A stretch of DNA of 17,516 bases from Promethearchaeota archaeon. Lineage in GTDB: Archaea; Asgardarchaeota; Heimdallarchaeia; Hodarchaeales; Hodarchaeaceae. The stretch spans positions 1 to 17,516 of the forward strand of contig JBHLMN010000036.1 in NCBI GenBank assembly GCA_048938105.1, in the 5' to 3' direction. Each line of letters begins with the position of its first letter. Position 1 is the first letter of the stretch. Shown piece after piece: positions 12,031-17,516 of this stretch. Below the pieces are notes generated by a model. The model saw nothing but the letters and a program-made list of their open reading frames with translations. It made no database searches and had not been told where the DNA came from. The position numbers and the translations under genes are program-made.

Positions 12031-13242
12031 TTATTTGTATTTGTGACCCACTTGTAAAAGCCTGTCGTGGATATCACGCTCCCCTTTAACCTCTTGAAGA
12101 TCACAAAGTTTTCCTACTCGCCAACCTTCTTTAAGCATAAATCCTGCCTTACAGATACCCCGTGCTTGGCGACTAGCTATTCGTTGACTAATGAGGCTTG
12201 TCCCCTCAGAAAAACTAAGGGTTGCAGTTTTTGTGGCTTCATTGATTTCCAACACAGCATCCTCATTTCCACCCAGTTCACGAAATTCTCCATCTACATA
12301 ATAGAGCTTAACTGTTCTACGTTCTGGTTGGATATCTGTCGGACGAGTTTCTATTGGACCTAATCCTAAGTCTGTTGGAGTAGGTTCTGGTTGAGGTGTT
12401 GGAGTAGGGGTTGGTGCTGGAGTGGGAATCTCTTGAGGAGGGGGAGTATAAACTTCTTCTTTAATTGGAGGTGGGGCTGGTACGGCTGGTAGGGCACCAC
12501 TCTCTTGTGTTTCTCCTTTAAGATCAGCAATTCCTCCTGTAATACCCTTACTTAATTTAGCAGCATCCTCTGTTCGAACATCTTCTGATTCAGCCAATTG
12601 ATTAATTAGATCAAAGAAACCTTCAGGCTCATACCCTTCACCTATAGTATATACCATAGGGTTTCGGTCACGATCAACATCTAGTTTCCTCACAAGCCGA
12701 TTCCCTGCTGCTTTTTCACCAACTTGTGAGTTGGCTCCAATCCAGACATAAAGGTCGTGATACGCATCAAGGACATAAACATCATCGCTCACAAACGATT
12801 CTTGCTTGAGAGGAACATTTTCGATCACAATATCATCTGTCGATGATCCATCCGTGAGGTCAACATCCCGAATACGATAGAGGGCGTAGGAAATTTCTTC
12901 TTTATTGACTTCCACATGCTTTAAAAACCCAGGAGTATCCCCAGTGATGACTACAAAGTCTAATAACCCTTTAAACTCCTCAGATTCATTTCCCTCAACT
13001 TCAGTATCAATATCTATCTCTTCATCTGCGAGGTCCAGCTGTTTGGCAGCCCACGCCCCTACTGCCCTGTCATCCGCAAATGCTTGCGAACCTAACCAAA
13101 TAAAAACCTTTTTCTTCAATCCTACGCTAACATCACTGTTATCGACAACGTAAACGTCCCCGTTCAAAAATTCGTAGGGGGGATTGATTTCCTTTAGATT
13201 TTTCCCTTCAACATGTAGCACACGCATAATTAGAACATCCAT
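12031..13242 (-). CDS. gelsolin/villin-family protein: two gelsolin domains, Pro-rich linker and a C-terminal divergent domain
   Basis: G1-like EFLNGDVYVVD..VFIWLGSQAFADDRAVGA..QLD..EVEGNESEEF; linker GFLKHV (cf. gelsolin GFKHV); G2-like LYRI..VPLKQESFVSDDVYVLD..LYVWIGANS..EK..EGYEP. Likely start ATG 13227. Confidence 0.9.
   Translation of the reverse strand: MDVLIMRVLHVEGKNLKEINPPYEFLNGDVYVVDNSDVSVGLKKKVFIWLGSQAFADDRAVGAWAAKQLDLADEEIDIDTEVEGNESEEFKGLLDFVVITGDTPGFLKHVEVNKEEISYALYRIRDVDLTDGSSTDDIVIENVPLKQESFVSDDVYVLDAYHDLYVWIGANSQVGEKAAGNRLVRKLDVDRDRNPMVYTIGEGYEPEGFFDLINQLAESEDVRTEDAAKLSKGITGGIADLKGETQESGALPAVPAPPPIKEEVYTPPPQEIPTPAPTPTPTPQPEPTPTDLGLGPIETRPTDIQPERRTVKLYYVDGEFRELGGNEDAVLEINEATKTATLSFSEGTSLISQRIASRQARGICKAGFMLKEGWRVGKLCDLQEVKGERDIHDRLLQVGHKYK
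12373..12489 (-). repeat. low-complexity Pro/Thr-rich coding tract inside the gelsolin gene
   Basis: Encodes PAVPAPPPIKEEVYTPPPQEIPTPAPTPTPTPQPEPTPT; imperfect 6-nt periodicity in the PT part. Confidence 0.8.
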
Positions 13243-13277
13243 TCTGTTTGTTAATATTACATTGAAATGATTGAGAG

Positions 13278-14341: not shown

Positions 14342-17300
14342 TTACATACCAATGCTAATTATGTCTTCCTGACTCGCTTCAATTAGAAGATTTATATCGA
14401 TTGCTCGATCTAAGAATTTAATTGCTTCACTTCGGTTGTAATGTTTGGACAAGTGCGAAATAATTTGTTCACTGAAAAAGAATTGCACACCCTCTTTTTG
14501 AAAACGTATCTCTTTTATAAGCTTTAACATTTTCTTCTCTTTACCAGATAACTTAAGATTCTCTAATGTTAATACTCCTTCATTTAAGACAAAAGCGGAG
14601 AAATAATGTAACGGAATATGCTTACGAACCATTTTCTTTATCTGACTAGTGGGAACCTGATCAGCACTGTAAAAGTCTTGCAAATCCTCACTAAATTTAG
14701 CTTCAACCTCACGTCCTAAATTTGCTAAGCGATCTTTGAAATAATCAGGTAATCTAATTTCCGAGATAATAATGAAACTTGAGTATTTACCATGCCAAAT
14801 AAGCATGTGAAGGCCTTCTCGACTCATAACCTCGATTTTTTCTTTCTCTTTCTGCTCATCAGTGCGAGAGCGCATTCCTTCTGAAACCTCTTCCATGAAA
14901 CTACTTAATGCTGCCGACATACCAGATAACGCATCGGTATCAGTATGCAGCTCTGCGATGGTTTTCTCTGAGTAAAACTGTAAGCCTGACTCATGACGAG
15001 CGATTAACAAGCGAATGGACTTAATATCCTCAAAACTCTGTTCAATTTTCATTCGTCTTCGCTGAATGAGGTCACTCCTCTGTTTTCGTTTGCGATTAAG
15101 AAAAATACTACTAATGGCTACTGCTCCGACAACCAGTAATAAAATCGTTCCCATAGTAATTATAGGAATTATAATTTCGAGCGGATCAATGATTTTTATG
15201 ATTTGATATTCAGCAAGTTCTTCTGATGACATACTATAACTTGAGGGTAACCCTGATAAGCCCGAGGCACTCCACACGGTAATATTAGTAAAACCTACAG
15301 CACCTAGGGTATTTTTACCTTCAATTATGAATGATGTTTGACCTAGATCATCAGTCTGGTTTGTAAATTCGAATACTCTAGTAGTTTCATTTTCGTATTT
15401 TAACTCGATGTAGAAAGTGACATCGACAGCCTCTAAGGGAGCGAGTGATAATCCTGCACCAAGACCACCAGTTTTTTCTTGTACATATGTTAAGATAGCT
15501 GTTATATCAATGGAGTCGCCTTGTTCAAACGTTTTTCCAGGTAAGATAACCTCAAGGATGGTTTCTCGTCCTTCTAATGTTATATTGAAACTGATGTTCT
15601 GGTTTTGATAACCATCCTTACCTATTTCTAAAGTCAAGGAGTAATTACCATAATGAAATGAAGTTGTAGTAAAATTGATAGAAAATTGATTCTTATTTAA
15701 TTGATATTCGTACAAAGATTCCATTACAAGCGTGTCATTCATCCATAGAAAAACAGTATCAAGGTTTGAAATATTCTGTCCTCTGATGGTTTGATATCCT
15801 TCTCCATCAATATAAAGGACATCCTCAACAAAAATTGATTGGTTATAGCGAAAATCAGTAATATTAAGAGGCATTGTCGGCATACTTAGTACAATAAAAC
15901 TTACTTCAATGAAGTTGGGATTGAAATACAAATGGGAAAAGGTGATGTTAATCGAATAGCGGTCTAAAGGTAAAAGGGAAGTAGAAGGATTGAAACGGAA
16001 CCAGTACCCTTCATCTGTTTGGTTTAAATCGACAACGTTAGAGCTATTTATAGTGAAACCAGAATCTTTTATCAACCCAGTAATATTTTCATTATAGTCT
16101 GTGTTATTATATAGTAGAAAGAAGTCATAATACTCAGTATAATAGACTGGAATGTCTACCAGAGCTTTGTGTTCAATTTTAGTTCCAGCTTTAACGACTG
16201 TTAGATGAAAGAAGAACGTACTATTCTTGAAATTATTCAAGTTAAAGGTGATTTTGATTATAAAAATACCAGTTTTGTTTGGATTGAAAGTAATATTCCA
16301 TGTGTGATCAATACCATCTTTAATAGTACTGCAAATAGGAATTGGTGAAACAATTGTTGGTGTACTGGTTCCTAAATTATCCCCAGTTAAATAATGATAA
16401 TATTGGAGGTTAATTGTCACTTTATCAGCAGAACTATTGGCAAAAGGCTGTGTAACAACAGTAGTATCATTAATTAGTGATTTTCCTTCATGGCTCCCAG
16501 TAATATTGGTTTGTCCTAAGGTTATGGTGAGATCAAAATACCATATTCTTGTCAGATAATTTGGATGACTTGCTGTTATATTCAAATTTAGATAAGTACC
16601 AAAACCCCCATATTTGGTAGAATTGAAACGATAATAATAGACATTAGATATATTATAGACATTTGTAGAATCACCATCAACAGCAATTGTTGCCCCTAAT
16701 ACTCCACTTCCTCCAGTCTGATTGTACTTCATTTCAATAGTTTTGTTTTCTCTCCATTCAAGGACAAAATTTTGTGAGATATCAGTTGTAAGAGTTGCAT
16801 TTGCAACAACATAAGCATAAATTACAGTTGAATGACTCACATATCCAGGCAACTCCGCAAATATTGTAACATTAATTTTATCTCCTGGATCGTGTTGGGA
16901 ATCATTGATTTCTAAAGAAAACCTGTAAGGATCATATGCAGAAGTATGATCAAAGTCTATCAGAGATTTTGATCCCCAAGATGGAACTCCCGAAACATTA
17001 GCATTATTGATTACTGTAGCATTATGTGTTGAGTTATAATAGACAGTGATATTCAAATAAGTATCTAGAATTACTTCTGTTTCATACTCGTAATTAAAGG
17101 TTGAATTAACAATCATACTTACCTCACGAGTATATGTGCCAACCTTCGATGAACCACTATTATTCCAGAAGGCTTGAAGGTAATATGTTCCATTTACATT
17201 CGATATATTATCAAAAGTATTATTAATATCCCATAGATCGCTAAAAACAGTATGGGTATCATTGATATTCTTTCTAAGCATTTGCGATCCGTTTGGATAA

Positions 17301-17516
17301 TCTATCCAATAGGTAAAATTCCCTGTTGCTCCAACTTCAACATCTATATTGTAATCATTCATTGTGAAAATTTGATATGGTAAACTTAGTGGTGTTCCTC
17401 TATATGAAATTTTAAAGTCCAGTATGTAATTCGGTGCAACAAATGAGGCAATCCAATCTGTTGCGATGGCTAGCGTGGAGGTATTGATAATCATAGCACT
17501 GGATTGATTCGAGTAA
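14342..17516 (-). CDS. large single-pass surface protein: Ig-like repeats, TM helix, cytoplasmic longin-like domain and winged-helix-like C-terminus (5' end outside the window)
   Basis: The frame stays open from ATG 17494 to the window end (YSNQSSA-MIIN). About 100 aa beta-rich repeats with many NxS/T sequons; TM IIIPIITMGTILLLVVGAVAISSIFL followed by NRKRKQR; IRLLIARHESGLQFY..DTDALSGMSAALSSFMEEV longin pattern; LSGKEKKMLKLI..EAIKFLDRAIDINLLI wHTH-like. Confidence 0.85.
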   Translation of the reverse strand, partial: YSNQSSAMIINTSTLAIATDWIASFVAPNYILDFKISYRGTPLSLPYQIFTMNDYNIDVEVGATGNFTYWIDYPNGSQMLRKNINDTHTVFSDLWDINNTFDNISNVNGTYYLQAFWNNSGSSKVGTYTREVSMIVNSTFNYEYETEVILDTYLNITVYYNSTHNATVINNANVSGVPSWGSKSLIDFDHTSAYDPYRFSLEINDSQHDPGDKINVTIFAELPGYVSHSTVIYAYVVANATLTTDISQNFVLEWRENKTIEMKYNQTGGSGVLGATIAVDGDSTNVYNISNVYYYRFNSTKYGGFGTYLNLNITASHPNYLTRIWYFDLTITLGQTNITGSHEGKSLINDTTVVTQPFANSSADKVTINLQYYHYLTGDNLGTSTPTIVSPIPICSTIKDGIDHTWNITFNPNKTGIFIIKITFNLNNFKNSTFFFHLTVVKAGTKIEHKALVDIPVYYTEYYDFFLLYNNTDYNENITGLIKDSGFTINSSNVVDLNQTDEGYWFRFNPSTSLLPLDRYSINITFSHLYFNPNFIEVSFIVLSMPTMPLNITDFRYNQSIFVEDVLYIDGEGYQTIRGQNISNLDTVFLWMNDTLVMESLYEYQLNKNQFSINFTTTSFHYGNYSLTLEIGKDGYQNQNISFNITLEGRETILEVILPGKTFEQGDSIDITAILTYVQEKTGGLGAGLSLAPLEAVDVTFYIELKYENETTRVFEFTNQTDDLGQTSFIIEGKNTLGAVGFTNITVWSASGLSGLPSSYSMSSEELAEYQIIKIIDPLEIIIPIITMGTILLLVVGAVAISSIFLNRKRKQRSDLIQRRRMKIEQSFEDIKSIRLLIARHESGLQFYSEKTIAELHTDTDALSGMSAALSSFMEEVSEGMRSRTDEQKEKEKIEVMSREGLHMLIWHGKYSSFIIISEIRLPDYFKDRLANLGREVEAKFSEDLQDFYSADQVPTSQIKKMVRKHIPLHYFSAFVLNEGVLTLENLKLSGKEKKMLKLIKEIRFQKEGVQFFFSEQIISHLSKHYNRSEAIKFLDRAIDINLLIEASQEDIISIGM

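What the first reader, a model, noticed from the sequence alone, without database searches (positions are those of the whole stretch)
12031..17516. Candidate Asgard receptor -> longin/uDENN adaptor -> gelsolin module linking the cell surface to actin
Seen: three adjacent co-oriented genes with gaps of 45 nt and about 133 nt, ending at a T-tract. They encode a surface protein with a cytoplasmic longin-like domain, a soluble longin/uDENN/coiled-coil protein, and a multi-domain gelsolin. Known: longin and uDENN domains heterodimerise and act as GEF/GAP platforms for small GTPases (Mon1-Ccz1, TRAPP, NPRL2-NPRL3, C9orf72-SMCR8, FLCN-FNIP), and Asgard gelsolins regulate actin. Inference: this could be a prokaryotic outside-in system coupling adhesion or sensing to GTPase regulation and actin remodelling, for example in protrusions. 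Caveat: the gelsolin gene seems to have its own promoter, so its linkage is weaker than that of the first two genes.
Basis: partly seen in the sequence, partly recalled or inferred. Interest (0 to 1): 0.88.

Follow-up and report, generated by a model that had tools for sequence, protein, structure and literature searches.

The report
Receptor, folliculin-like longin, gelsolin gene trio
In an Asgard (Hodarchaeales) archaeon, a surface glycoprotein with a longin-type tail inside the cell, a folliculin-like regulator of small GTPases and an actin-cutting gelsolin are encoded side by side; the parts are real, but that they work as one pathway from surface to actin rests only on gene neighbourhood.

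Summary
Three co-oriented minus-strand genes lie at 12031-17516, with gaps of 45 and 133 nt and a T6+T10 tract after the last. Gene 1 is cut by the contig end. It is a type I surface glycoprotein whose ~235-aa cytoplasmic tail models, at low confidence, as longin plus winged helix. Gene 2 (306 aa) is a tandem longin plus a long helix. Its second longin is of the folliculin/NPRL2/SMCR8 type, with an invariant Gly-Pro turn and conserved arginines. It has no DENN domain. Gene 3 is close to the crystallised Heimdall 2DGel gelsolin and carries an extra C-terminal "domain X".

The trio is kept in 13 of 15 related loci, but all orthologues lie in one GTDB genus where the housekeeping neighbours are syntenic too. 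Distant relatives of gene 2 sit in unrelated contexts. In one closed genome the gelsolin lies 145 kb away.

New support for a small-GTPase link:
- A paralogous receptor class has Ras-family GTPase genes directly downstream in 15 of 25 loci.
- A free-standing domain X gene precedes a Ras GTPase gene in 16 genomes.
- Other Gly-Pro longins sit among Rag GTPase genes.

No binding or expression evidence was obtained. This scan flagged the same trio earlier on another genome (e1-5455301).

The parts
14342..17516 (-). Receptor gene (REC1), 5'-truncated by the contig end. It encodes a type I surface glycoprotein with a cytoplasmic tail.
   Evidence: ORF open at the window end; the window is the whole contig; orthologues are 1400-2060 aa with an N-terminal signal anchor.
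15176..17516 (-). Ectodomain (the part present in the window). It is rich in N-x-S/T sequons, fast-evolving and variable in length.
   Evidence: 43 sequons, 5.6 per 100 aa against 1.8 expected from composition; 30-56% identity between orthologues against 70-94% for the tail; only a weak Filamin hit in Pfam.
15095..15175 (-). Single transmembrane helix, followed by the positive-inside stretch NRKRKQR...RRR.
   Evidence: Hydropathy peak of 2.68 at residues 774-792; sequence read directly.
14600..15025 (-). Cytoplasmic longin-like domain of the receptor tail.
   Evidence: AF2 model with pLDDT 61. Best structural matches are almost all longins: Sec22b Z 8.5, synbindin 8.4, sedlin 8.1, VAMP7 8.0. 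Foldseek top hits are Sec22b and VAMP7 at probability 1.00 but E 4.5e-3. 82% mean column identity among 14 orthologues.
14360..14566 (-). Winged-helix-like end of the receptor tail.
   Evidence: VIA-align Z 6-7 to winged-helix domains such as MukF, MecI, RPA32C and Cdc6. Low-confidence model.
13376..14296 (-). 306-aa soluble protein (P306): two longin domains and a C-terminal long helix.
   Evidence: AF2 model with pLDDT 81, pTM 0.67; 54 close homologues, all labelled Hodarchaeales-like.
13973..14296 (-). P306 longin domain 1, of the SNARE/roadblock-like type.
   Evidence: Strand-strand-helix-strand-strand-strand-helix order; VAMP7 longin Z 11.4, Loki RagO C-terminal domain Z 10.4, MP1/p14 Z 10.
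13577..13972 (-). P306 longin domain 2, of the folliculin/NPRL2/SMCR8 type. It carries the Gly-Pro turn (G123-P124, 13925-13930) and the loop S-x-D189-x-R191-I-x-x-x-G196-R197 (13706-13732).
   Evidence: 8yqg_B Loki longin Z 13.7, FLCN 6nzd_H Z 11.4, Lst4 11.3, NPRL2 8fw5_B 10.4, SMCR8/C9orf72 7o2w_A 9.8. Atlas matches to NPRL2 and to a Heimdall cluster in which 23% of members carry Pfam Folliculin. Motif conservation in 29 orthologues and 35 family members.
13382..13567 (-). C-terminal helix of about 60 residues. Coiled-coil formation and dimerisation are inferred.
   Evidence: Single helix 244-305 in the model; only weak coiled-coil-type Pfam hits.
14297..14341 (-). 45-nt spacer between receptor and P306. 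No T-run and no clear TATA box, so co-transcription is likely.
   Evidence: Sequence read directly. The same spacer is 18-45 nt in six other loci.
12031..13242 (-). Extended two-domain gelsolin (2DGel plus Pro/Thr-rich linker plus domain X). The likely true start is at 13227.
   Evidence: Pfam Gelsolin E 2e-22, two stretches; 7whf_G Heimdall 2DGel E 2.4e-87; start position from orthologues.
12034..12330 (-). Gelsolin C-terminal 'domain X', about 100 aa with no Pfam family.
   Evidence: 53-80% identity among orthologues. Free-standing 93-aa paralogues occur in 61 of 82 Heimdallarchaeia genomes, and the fusion to gelsolin is seen only in this genus.
13278..13287 (-). TATA-like box (TATTTAATAA) upstream of the gelsolin gene; a possible own promoter.
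   Evidence: Sequence read directly. AT-rich TATA-like elements lie at a similar distance in 14 orthologous spacers of 114-310 nt. Not tested experimentally.
11996..12017 (-). T6 and T10 runs after the gelsolin stop codon; an archaeal-type terminator signal.
   Evidence: Sequence read directly.

Best explanation
The receptor gene and the 306-aa gene most likely form one operon.

Shown: the receptor is a heavily glycosylated type I surface protein with a fast-evolving ectodomain. Its cytoplasmic tail is almost invariant and models as longin plus winged helix. The 306-aa protein is soluble. It carries a SNARE-type longin, a folliculin/NPRL2-type longin with the Gly-Pro turn and conserved loop arginines, and a long helix.

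Inferred: the 306-aa protein dimerises through that helix. The receptor tail and the 306-aa protein act together as a membrane-anchored longin platform. This platform regulates a Ras-, Rag- or Arf-like small GTPase, probably as a GTPase-activating protein, as folliculin-FNIP and NPRL2-NPRL3 do. The cognate GTPase is not encoded in the window.

The neighbouring gelsolin is an actin-severing/capping protein of the characterised Heimdall 2DGel class. It probably has its own promoter. Whether it is an output of the same pathway is open; its domain X is a candidate GTPase-binding module.
For: - Architecture.
- The Gly-Pro turn is invariant, and D189, R191, G196 and R197 are conserved across 35 divergent family members. 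Published work found the same motif class in Asgard longins (PMC12290439).
- The receptor-P306 spacer is short (18-45 nt) and has no T-run in the window and six other loci. The pair is adjacent in 14 of 15 loci.
- The tail is as conserved as CDC48 or SerRS (70-94%), while the ectodomain is 30-56% identical.
- A paralogous class of receptors with a homologous tail has one or two Ras-family GTPase genes directly downstream and co-oriented in 15 of 25 loci, with tail identity down to about 40%. The background is about 2% per 1.5-kb window.
- Two other Gly-Pro longin paralogues in this genome lie among Gtr1/RagA GTPase genes.
- Gelsolin: E 2.4e-87 to 7whf. A free-standing domain X gene lies 30-60 nt upstream of a Ras-family GTPase gene in 15 genomes of the genus and in one genome of another family.
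Against: - All trio orthologues lie in one GTDB genus, where the flanking housekeeping genes are syntenic too. Adjacency may therefore reflect shared descent.
- Five distant tandem-longin relatives sit in unrelated neighbourhoods.
- One genome has P306 and gelsolin but a different upstream gene. No receptor tail was found there, although that genome is only 74% complete.
- P306 is single-copy while the receptor tail has 2-5 paralogues per genome.
- None of 12 further longin-tail receptor loci examined has a P306-like neighbour.
- No GTPase gene adjoins the trio.
- There is no sequence-level match to the folliculin or NPR2 families.
- The position of the catalytic arginine was not checked by superposition.
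- The tail model has low confidence (pLDDT 61).
Confidence: 0.45

Rival explanations
1. The neighbours are unrelated. The three genes are adjacent only through shared ancestry within one genus. The receptor is an adhesin or cell-surface glycoprotein whose tail serves its own sorting or anchoring. The 306-aa protein regulates a Rag/Arf-like GTPase in nutrient signalling. The gelsolin is a general actin regulator.
For: The whole 17-kb block (MFS, SerRS, UbiA, PAC2, CDC48) is syntenic in the same genomes. Orthologues are confined to one genus. Distant relatives of the 306-aa protein have other neighbours. The gelsolin is 145 kb away in one closed genome.
Against: The receptor-P306 spacer is consistently 18-45 nt without terminator signals. 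The block has been rearranged around the trio (a 402-aa gene inserted, UbiA or MFS lost) while the trio persists. Paralogous receptors carry GTPase genes in the same downstream position.
Confidence: 0.28
2. The full three-gene module proposed by the first reader is real. Receptor engagement changes the state of a small GTPase through the tail and 306-aa longin platform. The GTPase then acts on the gelsolin through domain X to remodel actin locally.
For: Trio adjacency in 13 of 15 loci. The three lineage-specific architectures (longin-tail receptor, 306-aa protein, gelsolin fused to domain X) are all confined to the same genus. Domain X has a free-standing paralogue paired with a Ras GTPase gene in 16 genomes of two families.
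Against: The gelsolin has a longer spacer (114-310 nt) with a TATA-like box. It is unlinked in one closed genome. No GTPase is encoded at the locus. Domain X has no known fold or function.
Confidence: 0.17
3. The receptor tail works as a cargo or trafficking signal, like the longin domains of Sec22 and VAMP7 that bind coat or adaptor proteins. The 306-aa protein is then an adaptor-like partner and not a GTPase regulator.
For: The best structural matches of the tail, and of domain 1 of the 306-aa protein, are SNARE longins and small adaptin subunits.
Against: The receptor topology is the reverse of longin SNAREs, with no SNARE motif. Domain 2 of the 306-aa protein carries the Gly-Pro turn that the published work reports as specific to GAP-type longins (PMC12290439). 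Paralogous receptors pair with Ras GTPase genes.
Confidence: 0.1

Closest known systems
Folliculin-FNIP, NPRL2-NPRL3 (GATOR1) and C9orf72-SMCR8 longin GAP complexes of eukaryotes
   Same: Domain 2 of the 306-aa protein has the same longin fold (FLCN Z 11.4, Lst4 11.3, NPRL2 10.4, SMCR8/C9orf72 9.8). It has the Gly-Pro turn between strands 1 and 2, and conserved arginines in the loop before the last strand. A second longin-bearing protein, the receptor, is encoded next to it.
   Different: There is no DENN or other C-terminal domain of these proteins; a long helix follows instead. An extra N-terminal longin lies in the same chain. There is no sequence-level match. The candidate partner is a transmembrane surface protein. 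No GTPase partner is known.
Asgard Gly-Pro-motif (folliculin/SMCR8-type) longins described by computation (PMC12290439; NPRL2-like longins in 10.1101/2020.10.19.343400) and the Loki Roadblock-Longin protein structure 8yqg
   Same: Same fold (8yqg_B Z 13.7, the best match) and same motif class. The family is found across five Heimdallarchaeia families.
   Different: The tandem-longin-plus-helix architecture at over 50% identity is confined to one genus. The position between a receptor gene and a gelsolin gene was not mentioned in the passages of the papers I read.
Heimdall 2DGel gelsolin (PDB 7whf; PMC9433394)
   Same: The two gelsolin domains match at E 2.4e-87. The paper shows calcium-regulated actin severing and capping for that class.
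   Different: A roughly 180-aa extension (Pro/Thr linker plus domain X) replaces the 68-aa tail of the crystallised protein. The paper lists this extended form (B3_Heim, 409 aa) but did not study it.
MglA-MglB and Ragulator-Rag: roadblock/longin platforms for small GTPases
   Same: Same superfold; domain 1 of the 306-aa protein matches MglB, MP1/p14 and Asgard roadblock proteins at Z 9-10. The shared logic is a dimeric platform that sets GTPase state at a membrane.
   Different: Domain 1 has longin topology, not roadblock topology. The membrane anchor here would be a receptor's own transmembrane helix, not a lipidated scaffold.

Membership tests
Folliculin/NPRL2/SMCR8-type GAP longins | Longin fold (strand-strand-helix-strand-strand-strand-helix) | tested here: met
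   AF2 model with pLDDT 81; FLCN 6nzd_H Z 11.4, rmsd 3.2, 137 residues aligned; NPRL2, Lst4 and SMCR8 at Z 9.8-11.3; NPRL2 clusters in the atlas search.
Folliculin/NPRL2/SMCR8-type GAP longins | Gly-Pro motif in the turn before strand 2 | tested here: met
   G123 is invariant and P124 is at least 90% conserved in 29 orthologues; both are invariant in 35 divergent family members. The motif is defined in PMC12290439.
Folliculin/NPRL2/SMCR8-type GAP longins | Catalytic arginine finger next to the Gly-Pro motif | tested here: inconclusive
   R191 and R197 are conserved in the loop before the last strand. This resembles FLCN KDSLARGFQR and NPRL2 YSRN, which I recall from memory. No structural superposition was possible.
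Folliculin/NPRL2/SMCR8-type GAP longins | Sequence-profile match to Pfam Folliculin, NPR2 or related families | tested here: not met
   No Pfam hit at E<=1 for the protein. One of 35 family members hits Folliculin at E 0.15. No PDB sequence hit with the family profile.
Folliculin/NPRL2/SMCR8-type GAP longins | C-terminal DENN (FLCN, FNIP, SMCR8, C9orf72) or NPRL-specific domain | tested here: not met
   The model shows only a single 60-residue helix after the longin domain.
Folliculin/NPRL2/SMCR8-type GAP longins | Heterodimer with a second longin protein, and GAP activity on a Rag or Arf GTPase | not testable with these tools
   Needs biochemistry.
Longin domain (receptor tail) | Longin fold | tested here: inconclusive
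   The model has pLDDT 61 and strand 2 is not modelled. The top structural matches by two aligners are nevertheless almost all longins (Sec22b Z 8.5; Foldseek probability 1.00, E 4.5e-3). No profile similarity to the longins of the 306-aa protein.
Gelsolin superfamily, Asgard 2DGel class | Two gelsolin repeats homologous to characterised 2DGel proteins | tested here: met
   Pfam PF00626 E 2e-22, two stretches; 7whf_G E 2.4e-87 over residues 6-224.
Gelsolin superfamily, Asgard 2DGel class | Calcium-dependent actin binding, severing or capping | not testable with these tools
   Shown for the LC_3 orthologue class in PMC9433394, not for this extended form.
Type I membrane glycoprotein | Signal anchor, large glycosylated ectodomain, one TM helix, positive-inside cytoplasmic tail | tested here: met
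   TM helix at residues 774-792 followed by NRKRKQR; 43 sequons outside against 1 inside; N-terminal hydrophobic anchor in the full-length orthologues P0058, P0064 and P0078 and the own-genome paralogue P0079. The N-terminus of the window's own copy is missing.

The most novel reading that the evidence does not exclude
Hodarchaeales have a family of transmembrane surface receptors whose conserved longin plus winged-helix tails are membrane-anchored platforms for Ras-family GTPases. In this locus the platform recruits a folliculin-like GAP (the 306-aa protein). The GTPase state is read by domain X of an extended gelsolin. Together these would form a prokaryotic outside-in pathway of receptor, GTPase and actin that predates eukaryotes.
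Probability: 0.15. Interest if true: 0.92.

Novelty: new variant of a known kind. Interest (0 to 1): 0.64.

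Why it matters
How Asgard archaea control their actin cytoskeleton and protrusions, and what their many small GTPases and longin or roadblock proteins do, are open questions for the origin of the eukaryotic cell.

This locus pairs a surface receptor carrying a longin tail with a folliculin-like regulator, next to a gelsolin. Sister loci pair related receptors directly with Ras-family GTPase genes.

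Together they give a concrete and cheap set of recombinant proteins to test:
- the receptor tail,
- the 306-aa protein,
- gelsolin domain X,
- a short list of GTPases.

If the links hold, receptor-to-GTPase-to-actin signalling existed before eukaryotes. If they fail, the case shows how weak synteny within a single genus is as evidence.

Tried and rejected
- Complex prediction of the receptor tail (alignment A3) with the 306-aa protein (A1) gave no verdict, score 0.00. This is not evidence either way.
- The search of sequencing runs listed no RNA holder, so co-transcription could not be examined. Read laying was not used.
- My first guess of R170 (PNRED) as the arginine finger was dropped. It is conserved only among close orthologues, whereas R191 and R197 are conserved family-wide.
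- Absence of all three genes from genomes G059, G066 and G076 looked like co-loss. However, G059 and G066 also lack SerRS, and in G076 the SerRS contig ends 1.7 kb upstream. These are assembly gaps, not evidence.
- Profile-profile comparison of the tail with the 306-aa protein and with the Gly-Pro longin family found no homology.
- The family profile against PDB sequences, and Pfam scans of 35 family members, gave nothing significant.
- Pfam found no domain in the full-length receptor ectodomains.
- The atlas feature search for domain X returned only unnamed archaeal clusters.
- Rate-covariation (mirror-tree) analysis was considered and not run. About 13 taxa from one genus give too little power.
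- The bacterial promoter/terminator scanner was not used, because it does not model archaeal signals.

Full report
**What is in the window**

The window is an entire 17.5-kb contig (C65) of a 5.85-Mb, 65-contig genome. Its relatives are labelled Hodarchaeales or Hodarchaeota. On the minus strand lie three ORFs: 14342..17494 (open to the contig end), 13376..14296 and 12031..13242. They are separated by 45 and 133 nt. T6 and T10 runs follow within 35 nt of the last stop codon. The rest of the contig encodes an MFS transporter, seryl-tRNA synthetase, an alpha/beta hydrolase, a UbiA prenyltransferase, PAC2, CDC48, Hsp20 and a Ras-like protein without a P-loop.

**Gene 1, the receptor**

The ORF is truncated by the contig end. 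Orthologues are 1400-2060 aa and start with a hydrophobic signal anchor. The part present has 43 N-x-S/T sequons before a single transmembrane helix (residues 774-792) and one sequon after it. That is 5.6 per 100 aa against 1.8 expected from composition. The helix is followed by NRKRKQR. Pfam recognises nothing in the ectodomain.

Between orthologues the ectodomain is 30-56% identical and varies in length. The 235-aa tail is 70-94% identical, similar to CDC48 and SerRS in the same loci.

The AF2 model of the tail is weak (pLDDT 61). Even so, its first 150 residues align almost only to longin domains:
- Sec22b Z 8.5,
- synbindin 8.4,
- sedlin 8.1,
- VAMP7 8.0.

Its last 70 residues align to winged-helix domains at Z 6-7. 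Foldseek also puts Sec22b and VAMP7 first. I treat "longin plus winged helix" as likely but not settled.

**Gene 2, the 306-aa protein**

The AF2 model has pLDDT 81 and pTM 0.67. It shows two units of strand-strand-helix-strand-strand-strand-helix, followed by one helix of about 60 residues.

Domain 1 (residues 1-108) matches the VAMP7 longin (Z 11.4) and the roadblock-type platforms MP1/p14, MglB and Asgard roadblock proteins (Z 9-10).

Domain 2 (residues 109-240) matches:
- the Lokiarchaeota Roadblock-Longin protein 8yqg (Z 13.7),
- folliculin (11.4),
- Lst4 (11.3),
- NPRL2 (10.4),
- C9orf72/SMCR8 (9.8).

The atlas search adds eukaryotic NPRL2, Avl9 and DENND10 clusters, and a Heimdall cluster in which 23% of members carry Pfam Folliculin.

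The turn G123-P124 is conserved in 29 orthologues and invariant in 35 divergent family members. So are D189, R191, G196 and R197, in the loop S-x-D-x-R-I-x-x-x-G-R before the last strand. A 2025 paper defines this Gly-Pro motif, together with a neighbouring arginine finger, as the mark of GAP-type longins (FLCN, NPRL2, SMCR8, C9orf72). It reports the same features in Heimdallarchaeia longins (PMC12290439). NPRL2-like longins in Asgard archaea were noted earlier (10.1101/2020.10.19.343400). The protein class is therefore known from computation.

The protein is not a full family member. There is no DENN domain and no sequence-level match to Pfam or PDB. I could not superpose structures to fix which arginine, if any, is the finger.

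**Gene 3, the gelsolin**

Residues 6-224 match the crystallised Heimdall 2DGel (7whf) at E 2.4e-87, and eukaryotic gelsolins at about 1e-30. Pfam finds two gelsolin repeats. A Pro/Thr-rich linker and a roughly 100-aa "domain X" follow. The paper on 2DGels lists this extended form (B3_Heim, 409 aa; B3_Heim is my locus L010) but did not study it. Orthologues start at the equivalent of M6, where an SD-like GGATG lies 10 nt upstream.

**Is the gene order meaningful?**

In 15 loci from species-representative genomes, the order receptor, 306-aa gene, gelsolin is kept in 13. One locus (in a closed chromosome) has the receptor and the 306-aa gene only. One has the 306-aa gene and the gelsolin only.

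However, MFS, SerRS, UbiA, PAC2 and CDC48 are syntenic in the same loci. A scan of 399 Asgard genomes found full-length orthologues of the 306-aa protein only in the window's own GTDB genus: 17 of 20 genomes plus one fragment. Other Heimdallarchaeia families have only domain-2 homologues. Close receptor-tail orthologues are likewise confined to that genus. Conserved order across one genus cannot separate function from shared descent.

A search of 1.84 billion representative proteins found distant full-length relatives (27-36% identity in domain 2). Five of them sit in unrelated neighbourhoods with no receptor or gelsolin gene. At least one of these comes from a MAG with the same locus-tag prefix as a 306-aa orthologue, so it is probably a paralogue in the same genome.

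In the closed genome G065 the gelsolin orthologue lies 145 kb from the receptor pair. In G069 the upstream gene differs, and no receptor tail was found; that genome is 74% complete.

Three points favour a receptor plus 306-aa operon:
- The spacer is 18-45 nt in the window and six other loci and lacks T-runs.
- The spacer before the gelsolin is 114-310 nt and contains TATA-like elements.
- The surrounding block has been rearranged while the trio stayed together.

**Independent leads to small GTPases**

First, the genome's other Gly-Pro longin paralogues sit with Gtr1/RagA-type GTPase genes. One lies between three of them with overlapping or 17-nt boundaries (C52). One lies beside two (C28).

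Second, receptor-like ORFs with homologous tails are a family. The own genome has three: C65, C13 and C27. Weaker longin-only matches occur in large ORFs of another Heimdall family. The C27-type receptor is 1627 aa, with a signal anchor, 57 sequons, a TM helix beginning at residue 1317 and a tail of about 290 aa. A co-oriented Ras-family GTPase gene follows it 134 nt downstream (Pfam Ras E 2.8e-39).

A genus scan with that tail found one or two such GTPase genes directly downstream in 15 of 25 loci, with tail identity falling to about 40%. The genome has 57 small-GTPase-like loci, which gives about 2% per 1.5-kb window by chance. The loci are not independent, but several old paralogue groups share the arrangement.

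Third, domain X of the gelsolin has a free-standing 93-aa paralogue (C53). A Ras-family GTPase gene follows it 29 nt downstream (Pfam Ras E 1.3e-40). This pair is kept in 15 genomes of the genus and in one genome of a different family, where the GTPase is only 46% identical.

These associations make it plausible that longin-tail receptors act on small GTPases and that domain X meets one. They do not show that the three genes of this window share a GTPase.

**What could not be tested**

The one complex prediction gave no verdict. No RNA data set holds the locus. No GTPase is encoded next to the trio. The only Ras-like ORF in the window lacks every nucleotide-binding motif and lies 11 kb away.

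**Verdict**

The receptor and 306-aa pair is probably a functional unit that regulates a small GTPase at the membrane; I put this at about 0.45. The gelsolin as an output of that unit is possible, at about 0.15-0.2. The parts belong to known kinds. What appears new is the arrangement, the family of receptors with longin tails paired with GTPase genes, and the domain X to GTPase pairing.

An earlier follow-up in this scan reached a similar reading for the same trio in another genome (e1-5455301). I reached mine from my own searches.

Noticed in passing
G000:C27:328020-333622 (locus L086:6021-11623): A paralogous 1627-aa surface receptor with a homologous cytoplasmic tail is followed 134 nt downstream by a co-oriented Ras-family GTPase gene. 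The same arrangement, with one or two GTPase genes, occurs in 15 of 25 related loci in the genus.
   Followed up: yes
G000:C53:179602-180451 (locus L045:1507-2353): A free-standing 93-aa paralogue of the gelsolin C-terminal domain X lies 29 nt upstream of a Ras-family GTPase gene. The pair is kept in 15 genomes of the genus and one genome of another family. The domain X family occurs in 61 of 82 Heimdallarchaeia genomes.
   Followed up: yes
G000:C52:99774-103479 (locus L034:3775-7480) and G000:C28:57968-62399 (locus L035): Other Gly-Pro-motif longin genes of this genome lie inside or beside clusters of Gtr1/RagA-type GTPase genes. On C52 the boundaries overlap or are 17 nt apart, which looks like a Rag GTPase plus folliculin-like longin operon.
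   Followed up: partly
window 424-978 (+): A 184-aa Ras-like ORF (Pfam Ras E 0.0026) has no recognisable P-loop and is a possible pseudo-GTPase. It lies 11 kb from the trio, beyond the housekeeping genes.
   Followed up: no
G000:C13:2416-7008 (locus L037): A second full-length receptor paralogue (1530 aa, tail 66% identical) is preceded by a 424-aa secreted-looking protein. It has no longin or GTPase gene downstream. The same layout is seen in another genome (L022).
   Followed up: partly
window 13227-13242: The annotated gelsolin start is probably 15 nt too far upstream. Orthologues begin at MRVLHV, and an SD-like GGATG lies 10 nt before that ATG.
   Followed up: yes
L024:3127-6866: A distant tandem-longin relative (P0098, 294 aa, from a Hodarchaeota MAG) lies 19 nt after phosphatidylserine decarboxylase and CDP-alcohol phosphatidyltransferase genes and before an M50 peptidase gene. 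This hints at a membrane-lipid context for that paralogue.
   Followed up: no
L003:73-3369, L010:221-5209, L011:168-3725: In some relatives a second large surface-protein gene, with repeats similar to the receptor ectodomain, lies directly upstream of the receptor gene.
   Followed up: no
G000:C52:415753-416562 (locus L046): A third domain X paralogue forms the N-terminal part of a 269-aa protein of unknown function. It is conserved as 247-283-aa proteins in the genus.
   Followed up: no
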